Shown here one piece after another: positions 13,890 through 60,500 of a stretch of DNA of 64,000 nt (within the stretch, counting starts at the first letter, position 1; each line of letters opens with the position of its first letter). The stretch spans positions 1-64,000 of IMG/VR virus record IMGVR_UViG_3300031788_000007; one strand, given 5' to 3'. The translations under genes and the position numbers were made by a program. Below the pieces are notes generated by a model. It was not told where the DNA came from, ran no database searches, and was given only the letters and a program-made list of their open reading frames with translations. Source of the DNA: a virus.

Positions 13890-16052
13890 ATGGGAATCCG
13901 TCGCGCAAATCCTCACTTAGAAGAAATTATTGAGGTGTTGGACCTCCATCTCCAAAAGTACAGTGGCGATCAAGCGAAGGCCCGCGAGTATCTTTCTAAA
14001 GATGACAATGCTTGGATAGATGCAGAGATACTCCACTGCATGACTGAGCGACGTTACTTCCTATCCAACTACTATGCCATCAAAACTGAGGACCGCGGCT
14101 TCACCGGGTTGTACCCGTTTTGGGATTCGCAGGAGATTCTGCATGACGAATTCCGCCGGCTGGAGAAGCAGTTTGGACGCGTAAAAGCAATCGTCAACAA
14201 GGCTCGACAGATGGGGGGCAGCACGTATGTCTCAGGGGAAGTCTTCGCGGCAACAATCTTCAGTGAGCATGTAAACTCCATCGTCGTAGCTCAGGACGCC
14301 GATGTGACCCGGTACATCCTCGATATGTACGCAGCGGCTCTTGACTTTTTACCGTGGTGGATGCGTCCCCGAATTCGCTATCAAGAGGCCGGAAAATTCA
14401 TCGACTTTGATGAGAAAGACGAAACCCTGCGAATCACTCGCCCAGGACTGAAGACGCGCATCTACGGAGACAACGGGAACAAGCCGACCGGAGTGGGGAG
14501 GTCTAAAACTTTCGCAAGAGCCCACCTCGACGAGTTGCCGTTCTGGACCGATCCAAGCCAACTTACTAAAGCACTATTCCCAACCTTCAACTCCCCCGAC
14601 GGCTTCTATGTAATGATTTCAACCCCTAAGGGGCGTAATAATCCTTGGCACAATATGTGGCGTAAAGCGGAAGCTGGAGACATTGACTGGAACCCGGTCT
14701 ATATTCCGTTTTACAGGCGCGAAAAGACGTACTCTCTGCCGATTCCCAAAGGCGAAGTCTTTACGTTGACGAAGGACGAGGAAGAGATAAAATACCTCGT
14801 TCTCAAAAAAGACGGCTTCGCGATGAAGAACGAAGTCTTCAACTGGCGCCGGAAGAGGATTCAGGAATTCATCGCTAACGATGGCGACGACAAAATGTTC
14901 AATCAGGAATACAGCCTTACCGCAGAGGAGTCTTTCCAGACCTCCGCAGTCACCGCATATCCGTTGGGCATCATCAACAAGCTGATGAAACGAGTGCTGA
15001 ACCCGAAGTGGATTGGGGAGATCAGTTACGACTTCGACGCTGGCCGGCCGAAGGTGATGGTCCGCGAAGTGGAGCCGACTGCCGACTTGGAGTATCCAAA
15101 GCACCACAACCGCTTCAGTGTATGGAAGCGTGAGCGGCCAGGCGCGGTCTATGTCGTAGGGGTGGACGTGAGCCTTGGAAACGACGGCGGCGACTTCTCA
15201 TCAGTCACGGTAATCGACATATCTCTAGACCTGCCGAAGGATGAAGTGGTGGCAGTGTGGCACGGCTATATTGATCCCGAGTCGCTGGCTGATGTAACTC
15301 TAGCAATTTGCTGGATGTACAACGAGGCTCTGGCGGCCGTGGAAGTAAATTCGATGGGCATGGTGACGAACAACAAGTTGGTCCGCCAGTACGAGTACGA
15401 GAACATCTATCGGTACAAGCACCTCGACAAACTGACTCATTGGATGACCGACATTATCGGCTTTTGGACGAATGACAAGACCAAGCGGGCCTTGATGTCG
15501 AAGATGTCGAAGACGCTGATTGATGACTTGCTCAACATTCCAGACAAATTCACCGTCGACGAGTTTTATGATTTCACTGAAGATGGAGCCGAGGGAGACG
15601 GGGCTAGGGACGACCTTATGATGAGTCTTCACATCGCTCTTTACTGCGGCCACGAGGCTGAGTACCGCGAGATGCGGGAGGGGACCAGCAAGCAGGAATC
15701 GACAAAGCAGCAGAATGAATTCAAAATCCTCGACCGATTCGGTACAATCATTCAGACGACGAACTCGCAGCATGAAGCGGAGCGAGTGTCGAAGAAGAAC
15801 ATCGGAAGCAGTATCGTGAGGACGGCGGGGGCGACCGCTACAGTCAACCTGAAGGGATTGGGGGAAAGGAAAGTACCTAGCGATTTTCAGAATAGCGAGT
15901 ACAGCCCTGTGTTTGACGGCAATGGGACGGCTTCGCGCATGTACGAGGACGGGATCGATCCGGAGCTGATAACTCCAGAGGCGATAGCCCAGTACGAGGC
16001 GGATCAGGCGGAACTGGACTCGGATGACGAGAATTCATGGCTTTATCAGTGA
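13890..16052 (+). CDS. terL: terminase large subunit
   Basis: KARQMGGST Walker A, HLDE Walker B, ISTP coupling motif, YVVGVDVSLG..GD/VEVNS/DD RNase-H nuclease; ~130-aa C-terminal extension. Confidence 0.95.
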   Translation: MGIRRANPHLEEIIEVLDLHLQKYSGDQAKAREYLSKDDNAWIDAEILHCMTERRYFLSNYYAIKTEDRGFTGLYPFWDSQEILHDEFRRLEKQFGRVKAIVNKARQMGGSTYVSGEVFAATIFSEHVNSIVVAQDADVTRYILDMYAAALDFLPWWMRPRIRYQEAGKFIDFDEKDETLRITRPGLKTRIYGDNGNKPTGVGRSKTFARAHLDELPFWTDPSQLTKALFPTFNSPDGFYVMISTPKGRNNPWHNMWRKAEAGDIDWNPVYIPFYRREKTYSLPIPKGEVFTLTKDEEEIKYLVLKKDGFAMKNEVFNWRRKRIQEFIANDGDDKMFNQEYSLTAEESFQTSAVTAYPLGIINKLMKRVLNPKWIGEISYDFDAGRPKVMVREVEPTADLEYPKHHNRFSVWKRERPGAVYVVGVDVSLGNDGGDFSSVTVIDISLDLPKDEVVAVWHGYIDPESLADVTLAICWMYNEALAAVEVNSMGMVTNNKLVRQYEYENIYRYKHLDKLTHWMTDIIGFWTNDKTKRALMSKMSKTLIDDLLNIPDKFTVDEFYDFTEDGAEGDGARDDLMMSLHIALYCGHEAEYREMREGTSKQESTKQQNEFKILDRFGTIIQTTNSQHEAERVSKKNIGSSIVRTAGATATVNLKGLGERKVPSDFQNSEYSPVFDGNGTASRMYEDGIDPELITPEAIAQYEADQAELDSDDENSWLYQ

Positions 16053-16959: not shown

Positions 16960-17589
16960 ATGCCAGCATTCAAGACGGAATTTAGCTGTCCGAAGTGCAA
17001 GCGTGAAACGGGGCAGTCGAACCAGATTTCAGCCGCCGAGGGAAGGTTGACGTGCCCGGCCAACTCGAATCATCGGTGGGACGACACCGCGGCCTTCTAC
17101 GCAGACGGGCCTCAAATGGAGTTCAAGGTAGGGCCGGCCAAGTTCCCACCTGTTGAGGGGCAGACGCCGATCACCCTGAAGATACCCTTGCGGATCAAGA
17201 CCGATCTATCCGCTCAGTGGGGGAGTGACGAGGCAGTTTCGGCCAGGGTAGCCGACATCCTTTTACAGATGGCCGAGGGCGAAGTGATGATCCTTGGGAT
17301 GACAGACAAAGGGCGTCTGTTTGACCGCCTTGGACAGAAGTTCTCAAATTCCAGTGAACTTGTTGGCATAGTCTATGCGAAGATGTGTGAAGTAGACGAA
17401 GCCAAGGGTGAGCGGGACGCAGCCGTAGAAGACCTAAAGGCTTACGAGTCGAGGTCGCCGGGGAGGGTTATCGTGGATTTGGGAGACCAGTTCGCAACCG
17501 CTCAGGCGAAGGCTAAGGATGCGGAGACCCCACTCAAGCTCTGGATCGAAGAGCGGACACGGATGGCACTTCAAGAGAACTGGTTTTGA
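16960..17589 (+). CDS. zinc-ribbon plus RHH-like/coiled-coil protein
   Basis: CPKC...CPANSNHRW; ITLKIPLRIK RHH-like strand. Confidence 0.6.
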   Translation: MPAFKTEFSCPKCKRETGQSNQISAAEGRLTCPANSNHRWDDTAAFYADGPQMEFKVGPAKFPPVEGQTPITLKIPLRIKTDLSAQWGSDEAVSARVADILLQMAEGEVMILGMTDKGRLFDRLGQKFSNSSELVGIVYAKMCEVDEAKGERDAAVEDLKAYESRSPGRVIVDLGDQFATAQAKAKDAETPLKLWIEERTRMALQENWF

Positions 17590-17600
17590 TAGGAACTCCA

Positions 17601-19436
17601 ATGACGCTGGACGATTTTCCCGAGATAAGGCAGAAGCCGAGCGAGGAAGATAAGCGGACCTCCTCACGAGCCGAGTATTACATCCAACTCAACAACTGGT
17701 GCGATTCGGTTGTAGAGGAGGGGATAGCACTCCAGCAGGACGTTCCTGAACTCAAGGACATCTCTAACGCCCTCGACTATCTGGTAGGGATGCAGTGGAA
17801 GGATGCAATGCCTTCCTACCGGGCGAAGCCGGTCTCGAACGAGTTCTTATCGATGTTCTGGGAGACGGTTGGGCTCATCACGGACATCCGGCCCACCTCG
17901 CACATCGTCGACATCTCCAACGACGGCAAGTATTCCGAGATTCAGAAAATCCTCAACAACTTGAATAAGGGCTGGGTATCGACCTCCGGGTACGAGCGCC
18001 GGATGGCGTTCTGCATCATGTGGGCGATGTTCACTTCGGCGCCGGCCATGCTGTACTATAACCCGTTCGCCAGGGGAGACAGCGGCGATCCCGAAGACGG
18101 CGACTTGACCCTTGAGGCTCTGCCGCCAAGCTCGATTCTGCGGTTGGGGATGGGTGAAGACCTTCAGGAAGACGAGTGCGTAGTCTATCGCAAGATGCGG
18201 ACGCTAGCGTGGATCAAGCGGGCCTACCCGACGATGGGCAAGTATGTTCAGGCCGAGGAGACCAAGAGCCGGTACACGGTCGACGTACAGAGTCCGATGG
18301 GCGTATCGCCGCAGTTGTACCCACCGCTATCGCCGGGCATGAAGCGGCTTTTAGGGGCAGGTGACAAACAATCCTACGAGAGCAACTTCCCCCAGGCCGA
18401 AGTGCAGCAGTTTCACCGGAAAGACGACTCGATCAATGAGGGTCGAGACAAGATTTGGATGGGTCCAAAGGGCGCACCTTGGGGATACTGGGTCGAGCCG
18501 GGGAAGAAGTTGTACCCCAGAGGCCGCTTATTCATCCGGGCCAACCGGGTCACCCTGTACGACCAGCCAAACCCCTACTTCCATCGGAAGAAGCCGTTCG
18601 CCTCTCTTGGGTTGTACGGAGTGCCGTGGCAGCAGTACGCGATGAGCGTAGTGAAGCCTTGGATGAGCCAGCAGGACATCTTGAATCAGATGATGGCTGG
18701 GATGCTCCAGACGGTAAAGAAGGCGATCAACCCTGCCTTGATGGCGGCCAAGTCAGCTATCAATCCAGCCGCGATGAAGGCGATCGACAGTTCCAAGCCG
18801 GGGTTGAAGATCACCTACAGCCAGAACGCGCCACATCCCCCAACGTGGCAGACGCCTCCAGTTCTGCCAACCTACGTCCTGCAAATCTACACGCAGATTC
18901 TCCAATCGATGAAGCAGAGTTCTGGAGCCGCGGCAATCGGGGATGCGCTCGGGAAGAAGCAGGTTCCTTCAGGAGACTCTCTCGACAAGATTCAGATGGC
19001 GAAGAACACCCCGATCCGGGTCATGGGCCGCAGCGTGGAATGGTTTGCCGACGACATTGGTCAACAGTGGTGCGCTGACGCCTTGCAGTTCTACAGCGCC
19101 GAGCGCCGGATGGAGTTGCTGGGCATGGCCGGTCTCACGAAGGAAGACATGGACGACAGGCCAGGTTCGCTCATCCCTGATGGAATCCAGTCAGAGGCAT
19201 TCGTAAGGCGCTACCACTATCGCACGGAGCGCGGAACCCTACTCCACGTCGAGCAGCAGGAGCGTGTTCCGATTGCGTTCGCTCTACGCAAGGGACGCGA
19301 CCTATCTCGGAAGCAGGTATTCAAGATCCTCAAGTGGAATATCGACCAACAGGCCAACGATGAAGAGTTGAAGGCTGAGGCCGCGGCAATGGCTCAGGCC
19401 CAAGCCGGCGCACCACCGAAAGCGGGGCATAAGTGA
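17601..19436 (+). CDS. portal protein
   Basis: ~610 aa between TerL and scaffold; NPYFHRKKPF...SVVKPWMSQQDILNQ pattern of podovirus-type portals. Confidence 0.85.
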   Translation: MTLDDFPEIRQKPSEEDKRTSSRAEYYIQLNNWCDSVVEEGIALQQDVPELKDISNALDYLVGMQWKDAMPSYRAKPVSNEFLSMFWETVGLITDIRPTSHIVDISNDGKYSEIQKILNNLNKGWVSTSGYERRMAFCIMWAMFTSAPAMLYYNPFARGDSGDPEDGDLTLEALPPSSILRLGMGEDLQEDECVVYRKMRTLAWIKRAYPTMGKYVQAEETKSRYTVDVQSPMGVSPQLYPPLSPGMKRLLGAGDKQSYESNFPQAEVQQFHRKDDSINEGRDKIWMGPKGAPWGYWVEPGKKLYPRGRLFIRANRVTLYDQPNPYFHRKKPFASLGLYGVPWQQYAMSVVKPWMSQQDILNQMMAGMLQTVKKAINPALMAAKSAINPAAMKAIDSSKPGLKITYSQNAPHPPTWQTPPVLPTYVLQIYTQILQSMKQSSGAAAIGDALGKKQVPSGDSLDKIQMAKNTPIRVMGRSVEWFADDIGQQWCADALQFYSAERRMELLGMAGLTKEDMDDRPGSLIPDGIQSEAFVRRYHYRTERGTLLHVEQQERVPIAFALRKGRDLSRKQVFKILKWNIDQQANDEELKAEAAAMAQAQAGAPPKAGHK

Positions 19437-19606
19437 TGGCCGATTCAGAAATGAGCAAAAAGATAGCCGAGCAGGACATCCCGAGAATCCTTGCCGCGAT
19501 TAAGAATGGGGTTGATTCCAAACAGTATTGGACATTGACGATCAAAGGCACTGACAACGGCGGGATCATCGACATTCGGCTAGTGAAAGAGCAGAGCTTC
19601 AAGTAG
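19436..19606 (+). CDS. small protein (56 aa, DUF2292-like)
   Basis: Translated by hand: MADSEMSKKIAEQDIPRILAAIKNGVDSKQYWTLTIKGTDNGGIIDIRLVKEQSFK; coupled to portal stop. Confidence 0.65.
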   Translation: MADSEMSKKIAEQDIPRILAAIKNGVDSKQYWTLTIKGTDNGGIIDIRLVKEQSFK

Positions 19607-19634
19607 TAATTTTGCAGGCGTGTTAAGAAATCGC

Positions 19635-19663
19635 TTGACGAAGCACGGACTGCGGATAATGAT
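19635..19663 (+). promoter_or_regulatory. sigma70-like promoter for head operon
   Basis: TTGACG-17 nt-AATGAT. Confidence 0.45.
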
Positions 19664-19670
19664 TCTCACA

Positions 19671-19856
19671 GGGCAAGAGTAGCGGTTACCGAGAAATCGG
19701 AGAGGCCGCAGCAGCCGCGCAAGGGAGAAATCCTGAGTGCGGCTTTTCTTTTGTCCGAGAGGCCCCAAATCTTTCCTGGGGGCAACCTCAGCGGTGGAGG
19801 CCGCCGGCCGAGCGATCGGTCGCAATAAAAAACCCAGGGGGCAACCCCGGAAAGGA
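19671..19856 (+). ncRNA. candidate structured RNA / leader with GNRA-capped hairpins
   Basis: Closing stem 19671-79/19748-56 enclosing twin GA-GAAA-TC hairpins; further GCAA and GCGA tetraloop stems. Confidence 0.65.
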
Positions 19857-19863
19857 CTACACC

Positions 19864-19914
19864 ATGGCACGCAAAAAGGGCCGCAAGGGTGGACGGAAGC
19901 ACGGCCGCAAGTAG
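19864..19914 (+). CDS. 16-aa protamine-like peptide MARKKGRKGGRKHGRK
   Basis: AAAGGA SD, ATG...TAG, 9/16 residues K/R. Confidence 0.7.
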   Translation: MARKKGRKGGRKHGRK

Positions 19915-19984
19915 TTCGCGGCAGTCAGCAGTAAACGGGGGGCGTTAACAGCGCCCCTCCATCACACCTCAAGGGGAGCATCCA

Positions 19985-20512
19985 ATGAAGAAGTCAGGCA
20001 TGGCCGAGAACATCGAGCAGGGCCACTACCTTGCTACCCCAAGCCCAAAATTGGGCAAGGGAACCTTCGATCAGGTGGGGACTTTCATAGACGAAGGCGA
20101 AATGACAACCACCACGCCAAAGGGCACGAGCGTCAACGTGAAGACCGGCAAGCTCCAGAACAACGAGAACGGATTCTAGTCCATGCCTCCAATGACACAG
20201 CCGCCGATGGCGCCGGATGTTCAAGCCCAGATGGGTGCTGGACCGCAGTTTGGGGCGGGCGTTGGTCAGGCGCAGCAGCAGATGGGGAAGAATCCGATTG
20301 AGCTTGCCGTGGGCACCGTGGAGAAAATCCTCAACGGGATTCAGGATGAAGCGATGCGCCCCTTCATTCAGAAGGCACTCGCCACCCTCAAGGTAGGTTT
20401 GGCGCAAGCACAGCAAAAACAACCACAGTCGGCCGGTATGGGGGCACCGCCTCCAGGTGGAGGCCCACCTCAGATACCGACGCCACCGACTCCGGGGCAG
20501 ATGCCGGGGTAG
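19985..20512 (+). CDS. two small head-module proteins (19985-20179, 20183-20512 Pro/Gln/Gly-rich)
   Basis: Adjacent ORFs between portal and scaffold; GGGGAG SD before the first. Confidence 0.7.
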
Positions 20513-20597: not shown

Positions 20598-21539
20598 ATG
20601 GCAGTCCAAACGTGGGAAGAAATTGTATCGGCAGCGCAGCTTAGTGCTGATGAACGCAAGCTCCTTGACAACATCGTGCAGAAAGTCCCCGAGTTCAAAG
20701 ATGGGCGGCTTCGGCAAGCGGACTACAGCCGGAAACTGACTGAGTTGCAGACGCAAGAGAAGGAATACACAGAAGCTCTTGCATACAACCAGAAGATGAA
20801 GGTGTGGGCTGACGAAAAGGTTCCGATCTGGGAATCCCTTGTAGAGCAAGGGGTGATCGACGAGGAATCGAAACCGTTATGGCCTGAAGAGAAGGCCAGG
20901 CTTGCAGCAGAACTTGAAGCGGCTAAGAAGGCAGCAGTTGGAGGCGAGATGGACCCGGCAGAGTTGGACAAGCGAGTGAAGGAAATCGTGGTGGCATCGG
21001 GCTTGAGCCTGAACGCCGAGCAATATCGAAACCTCTACGCCAGCGAGGGAAAGAAGTTGGTGGAAGAGACGATCAACGCCAAGTACACGGAGTTCGAGAA
21101 GAACTTCAACGAAAAGACGATTCCATTCACGACCGGATTCGCAACGTCCATGGCGATCATGGCGAACAAGTTTGAGAAGGAAACCGGGAAAGAGTTCACC
21201 GACGAAGATCAGAAGGCAGTATTCGATCTGATGTCGAAGGAGAAGGACTTCAATCCCAGGACCGCCGTGGAGAAGTACATGGAACCAACAGTCCGCGAGA
21301 AGAAGACGGCGGCCGACATTGAGCGGCTGGCTGAGGAGCGGGCGAACAAGATCATTGCCGAGCGCGGCGGTTTGCCGGGCGGCGGCAGCGAGGGTCACTT
21401 CCCAACAGGCGAAGCAAGGGGCAGTCTGCAAAAGATGTTGGAGCAAAGCGCCAAGGAGGGTGAGGGCGACGTTGAATCACTCACCATGGCGGCGGCAAGA
21501 ACAGCGGCGGCCGAACTTCGGAGTGTTGGCAAGTTTTAG
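20598..21539 (+). CDS. capsid scaffolding protein
   Basis: GRLRQADYSRKLTEL motif, helical and acidic, directly before MCP. Confidence 0.8.
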   Translation: MAVQTWEEIVSAAQLSADERKLLDNIVQKVPEFKDGRLRQADYSRKLTELQTQEKEYTEALAYNQKMKVWADEKVPIWESLVEQGVIDEESKPLWPEEKARLAAELEAAKKAAVGGEMDPAELDKRVKEIVVASGLSLNAEQYRNLYASEGKKLVEETINAKYTEFEKNFNEKTIPFTTGFATSMAIMANKFEKETGKEFTDEDQKAVFDLMSKEKDFNPRTAVEKYMEPTVREKKTAADIERLAEERANKIIAERGGLPGGGSEGHFPTGEARGSLQKMLEQSAKEGEGDVESLTMAAARTAAAELRSVGKF

Positions 21540-21766
21540 GTGGTGAGGCAGGCGGGACGCCTTGAGTTCCCGCAACTGCAATTCTCCAAGGAAGCATGGG
21601 TCCATGCGGAGCCTGAAGGGATAGCAGGGATGAGTTGAACGGGAAGCCGAGAGGCCGAGCCTGTGAGACTAGGGCGACAACGGCGAAGGCCGCGGTAATC
21701 AAACATCTCTGGCCCAATAGGGCGCTCGACAAGGGCTCAACCCGAGTCGAAGAAAGCAAAGGGCTT
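21540..21766 (+). ncRNA. candidate structured RNA in scaffold-MCP spacer
   Basis: At least 6 short hairpins (GCGGGA/TCCCGC, GCATGG/CCATGC, GCC-GAGA-GGC, CGGC-GAAG-GCCG, GCCC-AATA-GGGC, TCGAC/GTCGA). Confidence 0.55.
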
Positions 21767-22735
21767 ATGCTTACGTGGAATGATCTCACGGGCAAAACGA
21801 ACGATCATATCGTTCCGATCATCACCGACAACGTGTTCAAGTCTTCGCCGGTATTCACCCGCCTCCGCAAAAAGCGGAGATTCGCATTTCCCGGCGGCTT
21901 GACCATTCGCCATAACATCATGTACGCGCCGCTGAAGGGCGGGTTCTTCCAGCGCGGCCAAGCCTTTGACACCTCGGCAGTGCAGACGGACACGGCTCTT
22001 CAGTTCAACCTGAAGTACGCCTATGTGAACGTCACGCTGTATGGTGTGGATCAGGTTCTCAACCGCGGCGCAGAAGCCGCGATGAGTTACGTCTCCTCGA
22101 AGATGGTGAACGCTTCGGGCACGATGGCCCAGATCCTCGGCACCTCGGTCTTCGGTGACGGCCAGGGTACGCTGAACTCAACTCTTGAGTTGGATGGTTT
22201 ATCGGCGGCTGTTGACAACGGCGTGAACTACGCAACTTATGGTGGCATCACCCGGTCGGACATCTCCAGCACAGCGAACACTGGCATCAACTCTTACTAT
22301 GCGGCGCCATCGGCCTTTAACCTTTCTCAAATCCAGACAGCCTTTGGTGCGAGTTGGTTTGGGCAGGAGAAGCCGGACATGCTGCCGACCACGCAGCCGG
22401 TGTGGGATGCGTTCTGGAACAAGCTCCAGCCGCAGCAACGGTTCAACGACGAGACCTCCGACGTTCACGTTGGCTTCAAGTCGTTCAACTGGAACGGTGC
22501 GCAGGTGGTGGTTGACCAGTACCTCTCGGTCCTGGGCGGAACCTACACGATGTTTGGTCTCAACACCAACTACATCTACCTGTACGTCTCCGATGTGCCG
22601 AAGTACCAGTTTGGATTTACGGGCTGGAAGGAAGCGCAGAACACCGACGATGTGGCCGGACAGTATATGTTCGGTGGCAACATGGTTGTTGCCGCATCTC
22701 GCTTGATGTTCAGAGAGGCATTCACGGCCCTGTAA
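21767..22735 (+). CDS. major capsid protein (HK97 fold)
   Basis: 322 aa after scaffold; DNVFKSSP..., LQPQQRF, GFKSFNWNGAQVVVD patterns; highly biased codons. Confidence 0.9.
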   Translation: MLTWNDLTGKTNDHIVPIITDNVFKSSPVFTRLRKKRRFAFPGGLTIRHNIMYAPLKGGFFQRGQAFDTSAVQTDTALQFNLKYAYVNVTLYGVDQVLNRGAEAAMSYVSSKMVNASGTMAQILGTSVFGDGQGTLNSTLELDGLSAAVDNGVNYATYGGITRSDISSTANTGINSYYAAPSAFNLSQIQTAFGASWFGQEKPDMLPTTQPVWDAFWNKLQPQQRFNDETSDVHVGFKSFNWNGAQVVVDQYLSVLGGTYTMFGLNTNYIYLYVSDVPKYQFGFTGWKEAQNTDDVAGQYMFGGNMVVAASRLMFREAFTAL

Positions 22736-23864: not shown

Positions 23865-24783
23865 ATGTACGGATACGCATACGGGTTTCTTCCAATGCAG
23901 TTGCTTGACAGCTACGACGACGATGGCCCCTCTCTCGGAGAACACGTCTCAGAGACGAAGCGTGAAACAAAACAAGGCAAGAGCGACAGGGCGAAGAGTA
24001 CCGCGGGCGCGATTGGAAGTTCCCTGAGTAGCATGGGAAAAGACGAATCCGACCGTGCATCGTCGATCTCGCAAAACATCCGTCCGGTCCAGTACCGCAA
24101 GGGTGGCAAGGTCCGCAAGACGGGCCGAGCCATCGTCCACAAGAATGAGCGTGTAATCCCTGCCAGCAAGCGCAAGAAGGCCGAGAAGGTCATGCGGAAG
24201 GCTGGGATGAGGCTCACGAATAAGAAGGGCCGGAAGTCTTCAGGGAGGTCGTAGCCTATGCCGTGGGGCAGCAAGGACGCCAAGAGGCACACAAAGAAGG
24301 CGAAGTTGCCTAAACATAAGCGGCAGTGGGCTCATGTGGCCGACTCGGTTCTTGAGAGGACAGGGGATGAAGGTGCCGCAGTACGGGCGGCAAATGGTGT
24401 CGTGAAGAAGTCTGGAAAGAAGCGAAAGTCAAAGCGGTCTAAGGGCCGCACGAAGGGAAGGTAGTCATGGCGAAGCGCGAGAAGGACGAGAAGCCCTCAG
24501 ACGAAGCCAGGGAGCACAGCGTTGGTTTCTTGAAGAAGGCGGAGCGGTTGGCGGAGAAGAAGAGCAATCGCGGCAAAAAGCGCAGCAGTAAGGGTCGCGG
24601 AAAGGGGAGGTCGTAATGGCATCCAGAACCGTCAAGAAGGCGCTTCCCGATCGAGAGGAAGCAAGGACTTGGAAGGGCGGTACGGTGAAGCGGGCTCTTC
24701 CTGAGCGCGAGACAGCGAAGCCGAAGAAGCAGCGTGGAAAGGTGAAGCGGGCCTTGCCGGTATCGAGAACACGTTCGCGGTAG
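23865..24783 (+). CDS. four small basic proteins (23865-24254, 24258-24464, 24467-24616, 24616-24783)
   Basis: All end in K/R/S/G tails; last two translated by hand (MAKREKDEKP...RGKGRS; MASRTVKKALP...RTRSR). Confidence 0.75.
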
Positions 24784-51516: not shown

Positions 51517-54500
51517 GTGGCAGTTCTCGACCAGACCGAGGCTCAAATTCCTGTCGGGTTGACCCCAATCCCACTCGGGCAAGCGCCATCTAGTGAGGCA
51601 AAAATCCCTGCCGGGCTTACTCCTATCCCACTCGGTAGTCAGCAATCGAGTCCAAATTTTGGAGTGAAGTCGCAGACTCAGGCGACTCACGCCGTTACCC
51701 CTCCAGTAGATGTAAAGAGTTCTATCCCTGCCGGATTGACGCCCATTCCTAAGGAAGATTCTCACGTTGACGCTTTCATGGCGGGAATCAGGAAGCCAGC
51801 GGCTCTCCGTCAGCAGGTCTACGACTACACAGTGGGGTCTGGTTATAACGCAGACCAAGGACGCCAGCGCCAGAATGAGTACGACTACGCCATCAAGAAC
51901 GGGATGAACCCACAGCGAGCGCAGGAGTTCGCCCTGGGGATGCAGTTCGAGGGCGGGACACCGAAGTACAATCTCACAGACCAAGAGAAGTCCGATCTCT
52001 ACGGGAAGGCGAAACAGGCCGCAGAGGGATTTAAGAGCGGCCAGCAGAAAACGATTGAAAGTCATTTCCTTGGAGAATCATTATTGCCGGGGGATGACGA
52101 AACATATCGTCAAAACATCGACCCCGACGAATACGCAAGAAACTATGTCAAGGGGTATACCTACGCTCGGTCTCAGGGATGGGATGAAGGGAAGGCGCAA
52201 GAGTACGCCACGTCTGATGCCGCATCGCAGTGGATGACTCGGGCTGGAGAGTGGATTGATCCGAAGTGGCACTCCGTCAAAAGCGCGATTCTCAACGTCA
52301 TTCCCGGCATCTCGAAGCCGGAGGAGAGAGCGGAGAACCCGTTCTTTGCGACGAATCAGGGGTATCGAGAGAATCAGTTCCACGTCTACCATGAGGCTGC
52401 TTGGCTGGATGAGCACGTAGGCAAGGTAGCTGGCAGCGTAGACGCTGGGCTCGGAAACGTGGTCAACGGCTTTTCTACTCCCGGCATGGCAGCATTGATG
52501 GTTGCCAGCGAAGGGCAGGGACTTCTTGCCCGTGGCGGTATAGGGGCGGCCGAAGAAGTCGAGACTGCGAATCTGGCTACACGTGCACTTGGAAGGGTGG
52601 CGCGGGCCGGGGGAAGACAACTTGGCCGGTCGGCAGCGGCAAGCGAGGAGATTGATTCAGCGCAGGCTCTCAGGGCGGCAGAGAACGCAGAAAAGGCCAT
52701 CCGAGCAATTCGTGACGCGAGACTTCCTGTGTCGGCACAGAAGGTGGCGAGAACGTTCAATAAACTCGTCACGGTAGGCTTTACGGCTCAGATGGCGCAA
52801 GGTTCCGCTGAACAACTGGAGCAGGCCGCTAAAACCGCGTTCCCCGGAGAAGGGAAGGACGGCGACAGTGCGCTGGCTGTCGAGTATGCGGTTGAGGGTC
52901 TTGTCAGCGGGTTGATGGCCGTGCAGGGTGGAAACCATCTTCGGCATGAGCATCTTCTCACGTCCGATCTCAACTCAAAGACCGCCGAGATGTACGGGCC
53001 GCAAAAGCTCTCGGATGTTGGCGGCTTACATGAGGGTCCGAGACAGAACGCCGCGACCAAATTTGGCGACCTCGACCCGTATCGACAGGCCGCAGTCATT
53101 CAGCGGTTGATTGAAGATGATCCGAAGTATAAAGCCGCAGAGGATGCAAGCGAGAAGGAGCAAAAGCGGCTTGCGAAGAAGATAGCCTACCGCTACAACA
53201 CAGCATTGCAGCAGGCGTGGAATCCCAACGCGGTAGATCGCATGGTGCGGGTGATTGACAACCATCGCGCAGCGAACGAATGGTACGGCGCAAGACAGAA
53301 GGCGGAGGATGAGGCTCGGAAGCACTACCTCGACCAGATCACGAAGCTCATTGACCTCCACAAGCAAGACAAAGCCGACGAAGAGGAACTTGTTAAGGCT
53401 GAGGCAGAGCGCCGGGCCGCGGCAAGGGAAGGCCGTCCGGTACGGAAGACTGTAGACGCGCAGAAGAGGGAAGAGAGTCGCAAGGTAACTCTGACGAACG
53501 CGGCGCAGATTGCCGAGCATCGGCAGGGGGTAGTAGATGCCCGCGATGTAGCGGATAAGGAAACGGCCGAGCAGGAGAGATCGGAGGCTCAGGACTCCAC
53601 CACGAACTCTCAAAAAGAATGGGACGATCGGTATGCTCGCGTCTACGGTATGCACGCCAGGAATAACCCTGATTGGTCTATGCCTCGTCTCCACGGTGAG
53701 ACGCTAGATATTGTCGGAGAAAGGCCCAAGGAGGATAAACAGGGAGAGTTACGCCACCCGGACGAGGTGACCGACGACCAAGGGTATGTGTCGTACCGTA
53801 GTCAGGTGTTTGGAGGGGAAGAGCACCACTTCGGCGTAGCTCAGACTCCAGACGGGAAGTGGGGAGTCTATCGGAAGACGCCGGATGGGATTGAATACCT
53901 GGGAGCCGGGGGAATCTTTGACGGCCAGCCGCAAGAAAGCTACCTTGCGCCCAATGAAGAGACGGCCAAGGCTCTCGCTCAGATCACTTCCCTTCGGGTC
54001 AATGCCGATTACGCTCTTGAGGAGCATGGAACCACGCCGGAGCGGGAAGCGGAACGGAAGCAACTCCGCGACTTAGAGCACAGTCTGGTAGATGGCACGA
54101 TCACGGGAGAGCAAGCACGCAAAGCCGCCGGACTGCCGGAGGAAGCGCAAGAAGCGCAGGCCAAGGAAAAGGCTAATCACGAGATCGAAGCCGCCAGAGC
54201 AGGAGCATTGAACGGTCCCCTTCACGGCAGAACGAAAGCTCAATACGAAGACGAGTTCCTTGCTGGGCTGGAAGAGGCGGGATGGGAGCCGGAGACGATC
54301 GAAGCGATGATCGACACCCTCCCTCTTCAACTTCGGATGGAGGCTGAGAACAATCTCCACTACGTCGGCCGTTCGGGAGACTGGATTGCCTCGAAGAAGG
54401 GTGTGACCTGGGTTCTCGACTCGAAGGGCATGTTGCAGCCGGACGATGGGATGAGTGCGCCGATCCCACTGATGAAGAATGGCCGCTACTCGACGCAGGC

Positions 54501-57500
54501 AATCGATCTGTCAATGTCGGGAAGGGTTGGATTCGGGCAGCGCAGTTGGGAAGACGCCAAAGTTGAAGAAGCGAAGGAGCGCGAAGCCAATCAGCAGTTG
54601 GAGAATCTTGTCGGAAACGTAGCCGATGAACTCCAGAGAGCCATTGAACTCTCGAAGCAGAACGCTGGCTTACAGATGGAAGCCGGGGAACTCCCTCTTG
54701 AGCGGCCGGCGCCGAAGCCGAGAAGCAGGTTCGCACCTCCAGTCGAAGGCCAAATGGCGGAATCTCCCGAGCGGGAGACTGACCGGGCCGTACAGGAAGG
54801 TCACGAGGCCATCCAAGCCGAGCAGAGGGCATTCGATGAAGCGTGGATTACCTTCATGGCCGAGGATCTGGCTGCGAACCATGAGACTCCGTGGCAGTTG
54901 ATTGAGAGGGTAGCCAAGAACAGCGGCATGACCCCGCAGGAAGTCTTGGCTCTCCAACTTGAGCGGTTGGCTCCTACAGACACCGTAGACGGCAGGATTC
55001 AACGGTTGAAGGCCGGGGACACCATCACCGACAAGATGGGCTTGCCGTGGGTGGTGAGGGCCGACAGGAACGGAACTCTGTATCTCCGTAAGGGGCAGGG
55101 AGCCAGAATCCACGTCAACAAGTTCAAGCCGTCAGACGACGTGCGGAGGATTGTTGGAACGGGAGAAGTTCAGCCGGCGCCAGGGCCGCGGTGGACTCCC
55201 GAAGACGTGCGGAAGGCCGCTTATGAACCTGCCTACATATCCCGCCGCAATGAAGTCATTGAAGAGGTGAAGCAAAGAGAGACGGGAGAGATTAAGGAGC
55301 ATCCACCGGCCACGCCAGAGGTTGCGGAGCGGCAAGCGGTGGCGGCAGAAGACCGTGAAACTCAGGTGAACGATGCGGCAGTAGCGGCAACCGCTGCGGC
55401 TGTTGATCCTCCACCAAAGGCGACCGACAAAGAGATCGACGAAGCCATTTCTAAGGCCGAGGAATTGCGGAAGGTTACCGAGGCCGCAGCGAGACAGGCG
55501 GCAGCCGCCAGAGGGCGCACAGCCGGGCCGGGAGAGTACCCACAGAAGGCGCCCATCACATCGAAGAGGGTTCCAGGGAGAGCATGGGCCGTAGGGCATG
55601 ACGGCTATATCCAGACGATCGCCAGCAAGATTCCCATGCACCGCGAACTCGTTAAATTGAATCAACTCACTCCATCCTTCAGATGGAACGGAAATATGCT
55701 AGAGAGGGTTACTGAGTATCCAGAGCAGATGCAGGATGTCCCCCCCGACGAAGCGACACGTTCACAACTTCTAGCAGATGCCCAGCCGGTCAGGTATGAC
55801 GTTGACCAATTTCTCGACCCAGGTTACGGCCCCGAGCGGGGACCGTCCATTGTGGACATTGGCGGCGATGTAGTTGGAGGGAACCGCCGCTTGCTCAGGA
55901 TGCTGAAGTACCTTGAGTTGATCCATGGAGACAAGGAAGCTCTTGCCGCGTTTCGAGCCAAGATGGCCGAATACGCCGGGAAGAACGGGATGGTGTACCC
56001 AGAGGGAGATGAAATCTACATCCCAGTTCGGATGCTTGACGAGCCGATAGGGACGATAGCCAAAGCGACTGAGTTAGGGCACTTATTCAACAAGAAGGCA
56101 TCTCATGGAATCGACGAAAACGCGAAGTCGATCACCTATGGACGGATGCTTTACGAAGCCCAGAGGACGGAAGAGGCACTAGGACGCAATGGAGTTCTGG
56201 ACCGTATAGCCGATGAGTTCAATAGAGCCGAGACGCCGCGAGATGCAATGGCTAACAAACCTGGATTCTTCGCCAATATAGTGCGAAATGAACTCGGGAT
56301 AGGCGGTGAAGATCAATCAGATTGGTTTAACAAAAACCCGAAGGGAGAATATGAGTTTCTGAGTACGAATGGTAAAGAGAAGCTAGAGAAAGCCCTGCTT
56401 GCCACCGTATTGAAGAATCCGTCTACGATCGACGCATTGGGAAGCTCGACGGCCTACGATTCGTTGCTGAAGTCGATTGGCCCTCTCACGCGCTTACGTG
56501 CCGTTCCAGACAAGGACATCATCAGTGTCATCGAAGAGGCAATTTCAGCCACGGCCACGACCGAGCGGAAAAGGGTTGATGGAGACTCCCCGAGGGTACG
56601 GTGGAATAAGACATTTGGAGAGCGAGAGTTTTTCTCGGACGAGAAGCCCCTCGATGAGCCGGGCCGGATGGTGGAAGCGATTTGGAGGGCATTGCATGAC
56701 CGGAAGACCACACGGTTCAAGAACGCTCTCAATGATTATTTGGTAGGCGAGGGAACCCAGCGTGGATTCTTTGACCCGGCAGAGCATGGATTGAAGACTC
56801 CCGCCGACCTTTTCAATGCGGCCTTCGAGGATGAACTGAAGGACGTGCGCGACTCTCGTGGACTGCAATTGGATGAGGCGAAGAGCGGGAAGTTCAAGGG
56901 CGATAACGCAAGTGGGATGAGAACATTCCTCGACACGCTTTCTTGGGAACTTACTCAGGATCAATTCGACGCTGCTCTTGAAAACCGCGACAATTACGGT
57001 GACGAATCGGTTGAGGATGCGAAGCGGTCAGAGGAAGGGAAGCCGCCACAGGAAGCGCCGAAGCCTGAAGGCGTGTCGAAGAAAATGTTCATCACGAAAC
57101 AAGATGAACGTGACCTGAAAGGACTCGGTTGGAAGCAAGAGCAGATCAATGCGATGAAGCCCGAAGAGGCGCAGGAGATTCTGTCTCTCGGGAAGCAAGC
57201 GCCGAAAGGGTTCAAGCCCCCAGAGCCCCCAGCGCCGAAGCCAGAAGCCGACCTCTCAGCGGCCAAAGCCGAGAAAGGCTACGTCACCCCCGACGAACTG
57301 GAGAAGTTCATCTCTGACCATCCGGCCACCGCAGATCATGCTCCTGAGATCATGCGTACCGCAAGGATGATGGCAGAGTATGTCTTCGATTCAGACCCAC
57401 CGGAGGGAGTGGAGAAGAAAGACGCTCTCGCCTGGGTGTTGGAGCAGCGCGTAGCAAAGTTGGCCTATGAGGAAAAGGGGAAGGGGAGAGGCTCCTACTC

Positions 57501-60500
57501 TGACCCCGAGATCGAGAAGGGCATTGGCACCCGCATTTTGAAGTTGACGAAGGCTTCAGATGAGACGACCTTCATCCATGAGTTCGCGCACGTCATCTTC
57601 CCGATGCTCTCTCAAGAGGACATGCGGGCCATCGACACGATCACCGGAGAGAAGGGTGAGCACTGGAAGCATGGCGACCCGCTCCGCGGCGAAGCCTACA
57701 AAACTGTCAGCGAGAAGTTTGCGCACGGGCTTGAGAAGTTCCTGCGGGACGAGAACCCGACCGGCTTTAGTGCTGAGGTGAAGAAGGTACTCGCCAAGGT
57801 CAAGGAGATGTTCCAAGCGGCCTATCTTCGGTTCCGTAGCGACCCGCTCTCGACGTTCAATCTGAGTGAGGACGCGAAGGAAGTCTTTGCGAATATGTTC
57901 CACATCGAAGACCTCGACCCCGCAGACGACTTCAGAAAGCAGCGAGAGGAAGCTCGCAAAGCAGACGCCAAGCAGAAGAAGGGCATGGTGAAGCCGGAAG
58001 CGGCTTTGCACCCAATTCAGCAGTTGGCGAAAGACCTGGGGCCGAAGCCAGTCCAAATTTTGGAGTCGATTGACGGATCGGTTGAGGATTCTTCAGGGGA
58101 GCGCGTGGACCCGTCGAAGCCGATGGCTGCATTCGTTTACGACGATGAAGAACATGCAGCGCAAGCCTATCTAAAAGCCGCAGAGGAAGGCTCTGGCGTG
58201 GCCGGCGTGGAGTTCGTGCAGACGAAGGACGGAAAGTACGCTGTCCGGTTCAACGTCAAGGCCAAGGTGCCAAAAGACATTCTCTATCAGGACGCGCAAG
58301 AGAAGCACCCCGGCCTGAGACTTGAGGACATGGAAGCGAAGTTGAAGACGACAACCTCGCCGATCCTGAAGAAGTTCCTTGAGACTCAGATTGGCAGGTT
58401 GAAAGCGGAGATCCGTAACGAGCCAAGGCCGCAGGTAGAACCCGGTTTGGCGAAGCAGGCAATCGCGGAGGTGAAACGTGGCACAGAAGGGCGAAAGACA
58501 GACACGGGACGAGCGGGGGTATCCGACTTACGAGGAGTACCTGATGGAAATCCTGGGGATGCAAAGCAAGCAGGAGTTGGACGACTTTCTCGGCCGCCCA
58601 TCATGGGGATGCCTGGACATGCAAGTGCCGGAGGTGCCGCCGATCGAAATAGACCCGGAGGAGGAAGTTCTCAGCCAGTTAACCTCGCAAACGTAACGCC
58701 GGTCAGACTCCAGCCGTTCGAGAGGGGGCGCGGAACACCAGTTGGCATCCTCGCCGGAGAGAAGTTTGACGAGAAGGTGTGGAGAGATGGCCTAAAGAGG
58801 GCTGGCCTTCCAGAGAACATGCCAGCGCCGACAGTGACGCTCTCCCCCGAGGTTGCTCGGACATTGAAGTATGCAGGACAGAAGCAGATCGTTCAGACCG
58901 TCCTATCAGCACTGGAGCAAGGAGACGGGGCTGTGATTGCATCTGTGGCGGGTTCCGGCAAGACATGGACGGAGATGGGTGTGGTTAAGGAAACGATCCT
59001 TCGGAACCCCGACGCCAAAGTTCTTGTCATCACCATGAATCGCGGATTGCTAGAAGAGGGCGACGATGCCGTTCGACAGGTAGCGAAGAACGGCTACGAT
59101 TTGAAGGTTGAAACCGACATCCTCGACAAACCTCCCGAGCCGGGTGTTTACGGGGCAACCTACCAGCGGTTGCTCAATAACTCCATCTACGCTCAAACGC
59201 AGTGGGACTTGGTGATCGCCGACGAGTCAGGAGCAGCGCGTAACTGGTACAGAGATGAAAACCAGCAGGGCAAACTCCTGAAGGCTGTGATGGACAACGC
59301 CAAGAAGGGTGTGTACGTCTCGGCGACTCCGTTCCATTCGCCTAACGAATACGGCTACGCCGAAAAGTTGAACTTGTGGCCGAAGGGAGGATTTGAAGAC
59401 TGGATCAAGAACAACTTTGCCCACGAGAAAATCGGCGACAAGGTGGTTGCGAAGCTCGACCCGGCAAAGCAGGCAAAACTACGTGAGCAGATGGTTGAGC
59501 GTGGGCAGTTCATCTCGCAGCAAATCTCCTACGATGGATTCTCTGTCCACTTCGGAGTGGTCCCTGTAACCGACGTGGTGGAACGGAAGCTAGACCGCAT
59601 CCATCAAGGAATTGCAGTTATGAAGAGGGAGTTGCTGAAGCAGGGCAAGAAGGGACTCTCTGAGCGGGTATCTGCTTTTGAGGCGACGTACACGAAAGCC
59701 TATCTTGAGCGGTCGAGACTGCCAGAGGCCATCGAAGTCGCAAAGAAAGCAAGAGCGCAGGGATGGCAGGTAGCCATATTCTCAGAAACCACATCTGAAG
59801 ACCTTTTCCGCCGGCCGGTTGGCCCGAAGGAGGAGCCGGGAACGTATCGTCTGTTAGACGAGGAAACCGGCGGCCAAATATCGCGCATCATGCCAGAGTT
59901 CCCGAACATTGCGGACGAACTCAAAGCCGAGTTTGGCGATGAGATGGGTGATTACAGCGGCGTTGGGAATACCGACGCGCAGCGCGAAGAGGCGAAGCAA
60001 GCCTTTTTGAAGGGGAAGAAGAAAGTTCTCTACACTTCATATGCCGCAGGAGGAATCGGCATCAACCTGCAAGACAAAGACGGAGATAAGCCAAGAATCT
60101 CCATCTTCCTTGGGCCGCCGTACTCTGGAATTCTACTCGAACAATCATTGGCGAGAACGTGGCGATTGGGAGTGAAGTCGAACGCGAGGGCGGTGTTCCT
60201 TGCGACAGACTCAGAGCCGGACATTCGTTTGATGGCTACAAAGATTGGGCCTCGCATGAGGGCGTTGAGCGCGGCGGTTCTAGGCGACCGTGATTCTTTG
60301 GCTTCGGTGATGACGAACTACACCGACGAAGAGAAGATGCGTGAACATCAGGACATGATGGCGTTCGACCAGGGCAACGAAGTGAAGGTTGACGCTCAGG
60401 GCTTCCAAGTGCGGAGCAAGCGGAAGGTCAATTTCGACAACTGGAGTTCGATCACCTTCCCGAACGCTGAAGAAGCCAAGAACAAAGGTATGCAGGTGGA

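What the first reader, a model, noticed from the sequence alone, without database searches (positions are those of the whole stretch)
19864..19914. 16-aa protamine-like micropeptide directly after the structured RNA
Seen: MARKKGRKGGRKHGRK with SD, first ORF of the head transcript, followed by the hairpin GGGGCGTT/AGCGCCCC; too short for the ORF track. Established: Arg/Lys-rich peptides condense DNA in eukaryotic viruses (baculovirus P6.9, adenovirus mu), and lambda N-type arginine-rich motifs bind GNRA-like hairpins. Inference: a virion DNA-condensing peptide, or the ligand of the adjacent RNA.
Basis: partly seen in the sequence, partly recalled or inferred. Interest (0 to 1): 0.7.

Follow-up and report, generated by a model that had tools for sequence, protein, structure and literature searches.

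The report
Conserved polycationic micropeptide gene in peat phages
A 16-codon gene for an almost purely Lys/Arg/Gly/His peptide, with its own conserved RNA hairpin, opens the capsid operon of a large group of uncultured peat phages; it is a real gene that annotation misses, and what it does is still untested.

Summary
The ORF at 19864-19914 encodes MARKKGRKGGRKHGRK, behind a GGAAAGGA ribosome-binding site and ahead of a GC hairpin.

It is a real gene. I found a 12-29-codon ORF of the same composition at the same position in every relative that reaches it. There are 47 distinct DNA versions (12-24 aa), and further variants came from motif-only scans. The capsid protein of these relatives is as little as about 45-50% identical.

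Evidence for translation:
- All 45 checked starts are ATG, with an AAGGAG-type site 4-10 nt upstream.
- Arg is encoded only by CGT/CGC/CGG: 0 of 212 codons are CGA/AGA/AGG, against 40% in the phage's large genes.
- Changes fall mostly on third codon positions.
- Peat metatranscriptome contigs cover the stretch.

A short upstream hairpin (19791-19804, loop UGGAGG) shows strong covariation and is gained and lost together with the ORF. Relatives that lack both carry small proteins ending in the same kind of basic tail.

Function is inferred, not shown. The most likely role is a head-associated nucleic-acid polycation that neutralises packaged DNA, possibly controlled through the hairpin. It is not a lambda N-type motif. 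No described family matches.

The parts
19635..19663 (+). Late-type sigma-70-like promoter of the capsid operon (TTGACG, 16-17 nt spacer, TAATGA/AATGAT)
   Evidence: Consensus scan. The hexamers are kept and the spacer varies in relatives. No RNA contig of run X1 covers 19427-19690, which is a weak point only.
19682..19752 (+). Optional leader domain 1: hairpin 19682-19709, then a terminator-like hairpin 19714-19743 with a U-run 19744-19752
   Evidence: Fold. Present in most relatives and absent in L035, L039, L040 and L044. RNA contigs read through it.
19791..19804 (+). Conserved hairpin GCGG-UGGAGG-CCGC (stem 4-8 bp in relatives, loop UG-N1-2-(A/U)GG)
   Evidence: Covariation score 0.68 against 0.15 in shuffles (0 of 500 reach it) and 0.03-0.14 when the partner is slid. 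All 33 hairpin-bearing loci have the micro-ORF and 34 loci lack both. Motif-only scans: and 85/86.
19824..19835 (+). A-rich tract AATAAAAAACCC that follows the hairpin in every member
19849..19856 (+). Shine-Dalgarno GGAAAGGA, 7 nt before the ATG
   Evidence: An AAGGAG-type site at 4-10 nt in 45 of 45 relatives.
19864..19914 (+). Micro-ORF, 16 codons plus TAG: MARKKGRKGGRKHGRK
   Evidence: 47 unique DNA versions among relatives, codon bias, and changes mainly at third positions. RNA contigs: X1 19691-19996, X2 19711-19887, X3 19857-19993.
19937..19959 (+). GC-rich hairpin (GGGG...CCCC type) with no U-run, between the micro-ORF and the next gene
   Evidence: Relatives keep a GGGG..CCCC hairpin with a changed interior.
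19985..20179 (+). 64-aa protein (motif ..VN-x-KTG..) that always follows the micro-ORF. Function unknown.
   Evidence: No PHROG or Pfam family and no Atlas lead.
23865..24783 (+). Cassette of four small proteins (129, 68, 49 and 55 aa; net +17, +18, +10, +14), three ending in the same kind of K/R/G/S tail and the 55-aa one in a short R/S/T tail (SRTRSR)
   Evidence: In relatives without the micro-ORF, proteins with such tails sit in the micro-ORF's slot.

Best explanation
Shown: 19864-19914 is a real, conserved phage gene with every mark of heavy translation. It is the first cistron of the capsid-assembly operon and encodes a structureless polycation of 12-29 residues (K/R/G/H). It forms one inherited unit with an upstream hairpin (loop UG-N-AGG), an A-rich tract and a strong ribosome-binding site. 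Inferred: the peptide acts through its charge on nucleic acid in the head pathway. The most likely role is a genome-bound counter-ion, made in large amounts together with scaffold and coat, that binds the DNA as it fills the capsid, lowers its self-repulsion and stays with it. The same basic stretch, attached as a C-terminal tail to several unrelated small proteins of the head module, would carry those proteins along. More speculative: free peptide binds its own leader hairpin and limits its own translation, in the way phage T4's single-stranded-DNA-binding protein gp32 and ribosomal proteins do.
For: Reality and translation:
- The ORF is present at the same position in all relatives that reach it.
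- 45 of 45 starts are ATG, with an SD 4-10 nt upstream.
- 0 of 212 Arg codons are CGA/AGA/AGG, against 40% in the window's large genes. GGC/GGT make up 83% of Gly codons against 41%.
- pN/pS is 0.38 on five independent pairs, with 20 third-position changes against 9 and 9. The MFETKRG block varies only at third positions.
- K and R are exchanged although AAG to CGN needs at least 2 changes.
- The null expectation is 0.045 such ORFs per window.
- Identical RNA-library contigs come from four peat studies.

The module:
- Hairpin covariation and strict co-occurrence with the ORF.
- Motif-only scans: 11 of 11 viral hits are followed by a K/R/G/H micro-ORF. In metagenomes 19 of 20 hairpin-forming hits are, against 0 of 13 hits that form no hairpin.

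Link to the head:
- Position between portal and scaffold/capsid genes.
- The scaffold-like protein is acidic, net -13.
- Four basic-tailed small proteins lie in the same module.
- Loci without the micro-ORF carry on average 1.3 basic-tailed small ORFs in its slot, against 0.15 in loci with it.
Against: - There is no evidence of any kind that the peptide is in virions or binds DNA.
- Tailed phages are not known to need encoded counter-ions.
- How a free 1.8-kDa peptide would be retained in a procapsid before DNA enters is unclear.
- A strictly co-inherited hairpin with a conserved loop points at least as much to an RNA partner.
- RNA contigs show neither translation nor amount. The predicted accessibility of the SD is merely average.
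- The host and the phage are uncultured.
Confidence: 0.4

Rival explanations
1. RNA-directed peptide: an arginine/lysine-rich motif whose specific partner is the co-inherited UG-N-AGG hairpin or a similar host RNA. It would regulate the translation or stability of the capsid-operon mRNA and have no structural role.
For: The hairpin has a conserved loop and a covarying stem. Hairpin and ORF are gained and lost together. Short basic peptides of this size bind hairpins specifically in BIV Tat-TAR and in N-boxB (established knowledge). Gly next to Arg or Lys, as in BIV Tat, allows close approach to an RNA groove.
Against: Only one such hairpin is seen in the 64-kb window, so the only target would be its own mRNA, and the benefit is then unexplained. 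K is at least as common as R, whereas specific RNA binders are Arg-dominated. The peptide sequence turns over freely while the loop is kept. The same tail occurs on several head-module proteins.
Confidence: 0.2
2. Tag without cargo: the basic stretch is a loading signal that takes small proteins into the procapsid, by binding the acidic scaffold or the inner capsid wall. The free peptide fills or tunes those sites.
For: The same kind of tail ends unrelated small proteins (DUF6496, phrog_2423 and others) in the head module. These proteins and the micro-ORF occupy the same slot in a complementary way. The scaffold-like protein has a net charge of -13.
Against: No loading signal of this kind is established for tailed phages. 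A tail shared by DNA-binding proteins explains the same pattern equally well. Nothing here is tested.
Confidence: 0.12
3. Cis-acting upstream ORF: what matters is the act of translating it (protecting the mRNA, opening structure, setting downstream expression) and the peptide is a by-product.
For: It is the first ORF on a structured leader and is followed by a conserved hairpin ahead of the next gene.
Against: The composition is held at 47-60% K/R over about 50 versions while peptide identity falls to about 20-25%. The codons are the preferred ones, not rare or hungry ones. The hairpin starts 22-35 nt after the stop codon and has no U-run, so it is no attenuator.
Confidence: 0.1
4. Host-directed effector: the polycation binds host ribosomes, RNA or nucleoid, working like tiny basic ribosomal proteins such as bS22, bL37 or Thx.
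For: Size and charge resemble those proteins (my own knowledge; such tiny ribosomal proteins often go unannotated, PMC10618245).
Against: No family or solved-structure match for the 20-22-aa forms or for the profile. The Gly-rich sequence is unlikely to form a helix as bL37 does. A late capsid-operon position is odd for host takeover.
Confidence: 0.08

Closest known systems
Adenovirus mu (from pX) and baculovirus P6.9 / protamine-like viral core peptides
   Same: Very small (mu is 19 aa), more than 45% basic with His, Gly and Ser, no hydrophobic core, and produced with the structural genes. The presumed action is charge neutralisation of packaged dsDNA.
   Different: Those are Arg-dominated, belong to eukaryotic viruses, and mu is cut from a precursor. 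Here K is at least as common as R, the peptide is made directly from its own 16-codon gene with a dedicated leader hairpin, and its presence in virions is unproven. No sequence relationship.
Phage T4 internal proteins and internal peptides
   Same: Phage-encoded small molecules that sit with the DNA inside the head and are made from head-module genes.
   Different: T4 uses an N-terminal capsid-targeting sequence and cleavage by the prohead protease, and its internal peptides are acidic. No protease gene and no targeting sequence were found here among the 10 head-module proteins scanned.
Lambda N / P22 N arginine-rich motif with boxB; BIV Tat with TAR
   Same: A basic stretch of 15-20 residues next to a short hairpin with a conserved loop on the same transcript.
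   Different: The loop here is UG-N-AGG (6-7 nt), not a GNRA-like pentaloop. There is one site, not several. There are no NusA- or polymerase-binding parts. The peptide is rich in Gly and Lys.
T7 gp6.7 and gp7.3 (small head and tail-channel proteins ejected with the DNA; PMC11784390)
   Same: Small head-associated proteins that annotation and structural work overlooked for a long time. Basic residues of gp7.3 touch the DNA.
   Different: They have 88-99 residues with defined folds and fixed low copy numbers, and they are not polycations.
Autogenously controlled nucleic-acid binders (T4 gp32, ribosomal-protein operons)
   Same: A nucleic-acid-binding product with a conserved structured element in its own leader. 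This is the logic proposed for the hairpin.
   Different: Here the binding is only inferred, and the product is 16-24 residues long.

Membership tests
Lambda N-type ARM / boxB antitermination | Arg-dominated, helix-forming basic motif | tested here: not met
   K 28%, R 24%, G 19%, H 7% over 47 versions.
Lambda N-type ARM / boxB antitermination | boxB: 5-bp stem with a GNRA-like pentaloop, at nut sites ahead of terminators | tested here: not met
   The co-inherited hairpin has a 6-7-nt UG-N-AGG loop. Only one copy in the window. It lies after the leader terminator, not before it.
Lambda N-type ARM / boxB antitermination | Further regions that bind NusA and RNA polymerase | tested here: not met
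   The ORF ends after 12-29 codons in all members.
Viral DNA-condensing basic peptides (mu, P6.9, protamine-like) | Small, highly basic, no hydrophobic core | tested here: met
   Net +9 in 16 aa, pI 12. Composition.
Viral DNA-condensing basic peptides (mu, P6.9, protamine-like) | Arg-dominated composition | tested here: not met
   Lys is at least as common as Arg.
Viral DNA-condensing basic peptides (mu, P6.9, protamine-like) | Present in the virion, bound to the genome | not testable with these tools
   Only the gene's position in the capsid operon and its presence in RNA libraries are known.
T4-type internal proteins | N-terminal capsid-targeting sequence removed by a prohead protease | tested here: inconclusive
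   No protease family among the 10 head-module proteins scanned. Many members carry an N-terminal (F/Y)-E-x-(K/R) motif of unknown meaning.
Amino-acid-sensing leader peptide / attenuator | Run of regulatory codons, and a terminator/antiterminator choice set by the ribosome's position | tested here: not met
   K, R and G are interleaved and use preferred codons. The downstream hairpin starts 22-35 nt after the stop and lacks a U-run.
Tiny basic ribosomal proteins (bL37, bS22, Thx) | Match to the family model or to a solved chain | tested here: not met
   NCBIfam: none for the 20- and 22-aa forms. PDB: none for two forms or for the profile at E up to 10. The 16-aa form is below the tools' minimum length.
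Tiny basic ribosomal proteins (bL37, bS22, Thx) | Bound to ribosomes | not testable with these tools
   -

The most novel reading that the evidence does not exclude
A self-contained peptide-RNA module. It would be one of the smallest phage genes with a function (12-29 codons), making a polycation whose synthesis is set by its own co-inherited operator hairpin. The polycation would serve as a built-in, non-diffusible counter-ion for packaged DNA in phages of ion-poor, acidic peat water. The same basic stretch, used as a portable C-terminal tag, would load small cargo proteins onto the genome for delivery into the host.
Probability: 0.2. Interest if true: 0.85.

Novelty: new variant of a known kind. 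Interest (0 to 1): 0.62.

Why it matters
Gene callers discard ORFs this short, so the family is invisible in every phage annotation. Yet it is among the most strictly kept features of the head module in well over a hundred viral and metagenome contigs.

If the peptide travels with the DNA, tailed phages would have an encoded answer to the charge problem of packaging. Until now that has been ascribed to host polyamines and metal ions, and to protamine-like proteins only in eukaryotic viruses.

If it binds its hairpin, it would be a minimal natural peptide-RNA pair. Both partners are small enough to synthesise, and about 50 natural variants of each are available to read the recognition rules from.

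Either way, the basic tail shared by unrelated small head proteins points to a so far undescribed way of bringing proteins to the phage genome or into the capsid.

Tried and rejected
- Rfam: no match at gathering thresholds for the whole window. Only chance-level hits at E up to 10 for 19400-20100.
- blastn against cultured phages found nothing.
- Only distant cultured relatives exist (Mx8/Mx9 capsid about 30%, Tunturiibacter phage portal 24%). Mx9 and Bradyrhizobium phage ppBjS10J-1 have no such ORF.
- Pfam, NCBIfam and PDB gave nothing for the 20-22-aa forms or the profile.
- My recollection that mycobacterial bL37 begins in a similar way could not be checked against a sequence, so I dropped it as evidence.
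- A scan of bacterial genomes with the capsid profile found no prophage, so the host is not identified.
I reached more distant relatives through a second capsid profile instead.
- RNAalifold on a MAFFT alignment of the whole leader was uninformative. nhmmer with that alignment found only L128. Anchoring on the hairpin loop solved this.
- Predicted SD accessibility equals the regional mean (0.43 against 0.43), so I make no claim that the site is open or masked.
- I found no convincing pseudoknot partner for the loop by inspection.
- Depths of RNA contigs cannot rank genes, and the gaps between contigs prove nothing.
- The ESM Atlas gave no lead for the neighbouring 64-aa protein.
- Four literature searches found no phage-encoded polycationic micropeptide.
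- The 65-aa GTG ORF at 19737-19934 overlaps the micro-ORF in another frame and lies across the structured leader. I treated it as spurious.

Full report
**1. The observation**

The window is the first 64 kb of a 78,982-base IMG/VR virus record, estimated 81% complete. Almost all its genes are on the + strand.

The gene order around the finding is:

| Position | Feature |
|---|---|
| 13890-16052 | large terminase |
| 17586-19436 | portal |
| 19433-19606 | 57-aa ORF |
| 19607-19863 | 257-nt gap |
| 19864-19914 | micro-ORF |
| 19985-20179 | 64-aa ORF |
| 20183-20512 | 109-aa ORF |
| 20598-21539 | acidic 313-aa scaffold-like protein |
| listed from 21635 | major capsid protein (phrog_9953) |

An ORF with these properties is expected 0.045 times per random window of the same composition.

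**2. Conservation**

- Portal relatives in IMG/VR (67-98% identity) all carry a K/R/G-rich micro-ORF at the same position, provided the contig reaches it. In L001-L004 an inserted minus-strand gene pushes it 600 nt further on.
- Capsid-protein relatives at 60-95% identity do the same, without exception.
- A second capsid profile was built from proteins about 60% identical to the window's. It reached groups that are only 43-52% identical to that second profile, and therefore at least as far from the window's protein. Many of them again have the micro-ORF about 1.45 kb upstream of the capsid gene.

In total I collected 47 distinct DNA versions of 12-24 codons. More came from motif-only scans, up to 29 codons. 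Peptide identity to the window's version falls to about 20-25%. What is kept is the composition and a loose core: K/R-R-G/H-K..R..K-G-G-R-K/S, with a His in most versions (7% of residues overall).

**3. Evidence that it is translated**

- All 45 starts checked are ATG, with an AAGGAG-type site 4-10 nt upstream; the mode is 6-7 nt.
- Of 212 Arg codons, all are CGT, CGC or CGG. In the window's large genes CGA, AGA and AGG make up 40% of Arg codons.
- GGC and GGT make up 83% of Gly codons, against 41% in the large genes. This is the bias also seen in the capsid gene.
- In five phylogenetically independent close pairs, pS is 0.26 and pN is 0.10. There are 20 changes at third positions against 9 and 9 at the first two.
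- The seven versions that begin MFETKRG differ only at third positions in that block.
- Lys (AAG) and Arg (CGN) replace each other although this needs at least two substitutions.
- The other two frames carry stops in 12 and 31 of the 47 versions.

Together these findings show selection on a translated product with positive charge. They do not fit selection on a purine-rich RNA.

**4. RNA evidence**

Ten peat metatranscriptome runs from nine studies hold parts of the 5.2-kb stretch. The four I laid gave these contigs:

| Run | Contig | Note |
|---|---|---|
| X1 | 19691-19996 | no mismatch, adapter sequence directly before 19691 |
| X2 | 19711-19887 | |
| X3 | 19857-19993 | adapters at both ends |
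| X4 | 19691-19860 | |

The leader, the micro-ORF and the downstream hairpin therefore occur on single molecules in RNA libraries, and the leader terminator is read through. Two studies share an end at 19691. That is a weak hint of a 5' end about 20 nt inside the transcript. Contigs cannot give strand, amount or translation.

**5. The leader and its hairpin**

In the window's own group the leader has three parts:
- a conserved promoter;
- an optional first domain, a hairpin followed by an intrinsic-terminator-like hairpin, which is missing in four relatives;
- a conserved second domain.

Across all groups the constant part is short: a hairpin, then an A-rich tract ending in CC, then sometimes a small variable hairpin, then the ribosome-binding site. 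In the window the hairpin is 19791-19804 (GCGG-UGGAGG-CCGC).

On 29 aligned hairpins with six-base loops the four inner pairs are always paired, and each shows compensatory changes. One pair reads CG 12, GC 8, UA 8, AU 1. The covariation score is 0.68, against 0.15 in shuffles (0 of 500 reach it) and 0.03-0.14 with the partner slid. The loop is U-G-N-A-G-G, or a seven-base variant.

Hairpin and micro-ORF are inherited together. Among 75 more distant loci that reach the slot, all 33 with the hairpin have the micro-ORF; four of these had been missed by my composition filter. Thirty-four loci have neither.

As a prediction test I scanned for the RNA motif alone, leaving out the ORF.
- In IMG/VR, 11 of 11 hits are followed by a K/R/G/H micro-ORF.
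- In the metagenome collection, 19 of the 20 hits that form a stem of at least 5 bp are followed by one.
- None of the 13 hits with a stem of only 2-3 bp is. These serve as chance controls.

The hairpin is thus part of the micro-ORF's own unit and not a general signal of the operon. Predicted accessibility of the ribosome-binding site is average, so I draw no conclusion on masking.

After the stop codon every member has a GC-rich GGGG...CCCC hairpin without a U-run. Its interior changes in a compensatory way. The 56-67-aa VN-x-KTG protein follows.

**6. The basic tail elsewhere**

The window has four more small, very basic proteins at 23865-24783 (net +10 to +18). Three of them end in tails such as ..KKGRKSSGRS..SKGRTKGR and ..KGRGKGRS. 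The fourth, the 55-aa protein, ends in a shorter R/S/T tail..PVSRTRSR.

In relatives without the micro-ORF, its slot holds one to five small proteins of 38-122 aa. They have different N-terminal parts (DUF6496, phrog_2423 and others) and end in the same kind of tail. One example is a 45-aa protein ending RKSKRGKGRKGGRGSGRK. On a rough count there are 1.3 such ORFs per locus without the micro-ORF and 0.15 per locus with it.

The micropeptide therefore looks like this tail on its own.

**7. What it does**

Nothing here measures function. The facts that bear on it are:
- pure charge without structure;
- free turnover of sequence under constant composition;
- signals of high expression;
- first place in the operon that makes scaffold and coat;
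- an acidic scaffold;
- a family of tail-bearing small proteins in the same module;
- a dedicated hairpin with a conserved loop.

I rank the readings as follows.
- A head-associated nucleic-acid polycation, meaning a counter-ion for packaged DNA with the hairpin as expression or feedback element: 0.40.
- A peptide whose real partner is the RNA hairpin: 0.20.
- A loading tag without cargo: 0.12.
- A cis-acting upstream ORF: 0.10.
- A host-directed effector: 0.08.

The remainder is left open. That the source is peat suggests a reason for non-diffusible counter-ions in ion-poor acidic water. This is speculation.

**8. Comparison with known systems**

- It is not a lambda N-type motif. The composition, the loop type, the single site and the absence of further domains all fail that test.
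- It resembles adenovirus mu in size and in its His/Gly/Ser admixture. It differs in being Lys-rich, directly encoded, and from a tailed phage.
- T4 internal proteins and peptides, and T7 gp6.7/gp7.3 (PMC11784390), are precedents for small molecules inside heads, but they work through folds, targeting sequences or proteolysis.
- I found no family model, no solved chain and no paper in the held library that describes such a gene.

**9. Verdict**

The gene is real and new to annotation (confidence about 0.9). It forms a module with a covarying hairpin (about 0.85). Its role as a DNA counter-ion is the best guess, not a result.

Noticed in passing
window 19635-19752: A promoter followed within about 80 nt by an intrinsic-terminator-like hairpin with a U-run (19714-19752). 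This recalls the lambda PR'-tR' (6S RNA) layout that needs a late antiterminator. RNA contigs read through it. Four relatives lack this domain entirely.
   Followed up: partly
window 19691: Contigs of two peat metatranscriptomes from different studies begin exactly here. One has adapter sequence directly before it. This may be a processed or primary 5' end inside the first leader hairpin.
   Followed up: partly
window 23865-24783: Four consecutive small proteins (129, 68, 49, 55 aa), net +10 to +18. Three have K/R/G/S C-terminal tails like the micropeptide; the 55-aa one ends in a short R/S/T tail. The 55-aa one also has three VK(K/R)ALP repeats.
   Followed up: partly
L001:6030-6530 (also L002-L004): A roughly 500-nt insertion with an ORF on the opposite strand, between the 57-aa gene and the capsid-operon promoter. 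It is absent from the window and looks like a mobile or moron-type gene.
   Followed up: no
window 21635-22735: The capsid ORF as listed starts at TTG 21635, but homologues are 320-328 aa and begin at MLTWNDL. The true start is probably the ATG at 21767. That leaves a long untranslated gap of about 225 nt after the scaffold gene.
   Followed up: partly
window 51517-63003: A 3828-aa protein with an SNF2/Strawberry-notch-type helicase region (residues about 2447-2932). It is not an N4-type virion RNA polymerase.
   Followed up: no
window 19864-19911: The ORF is a 12-nt tandem repeat (CGC AAR AAG GGN type) giving RKxG four times. Slippage of this unit would explain the length variation among relatives.
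   Followed up: no
L030-L060, L096-L128 micro-ORFs: Many versions start with a short non-basic head containing (F/Y)-E-x-(K/R), for example MFETK, MNFED, MINFEVK. Its meaning is unknown; it could be a cleavage or recognition site.
   Followed up: no
L189:650-694 (minus strand) and downstream: One motif hit is followed by a 29-aa K/E/R-rich variant (MARKKKEEPKRKKEMERKEERKMERKGKR). This shows that mixed-charge forms of the micro-ORF exist.
   Followed up: no
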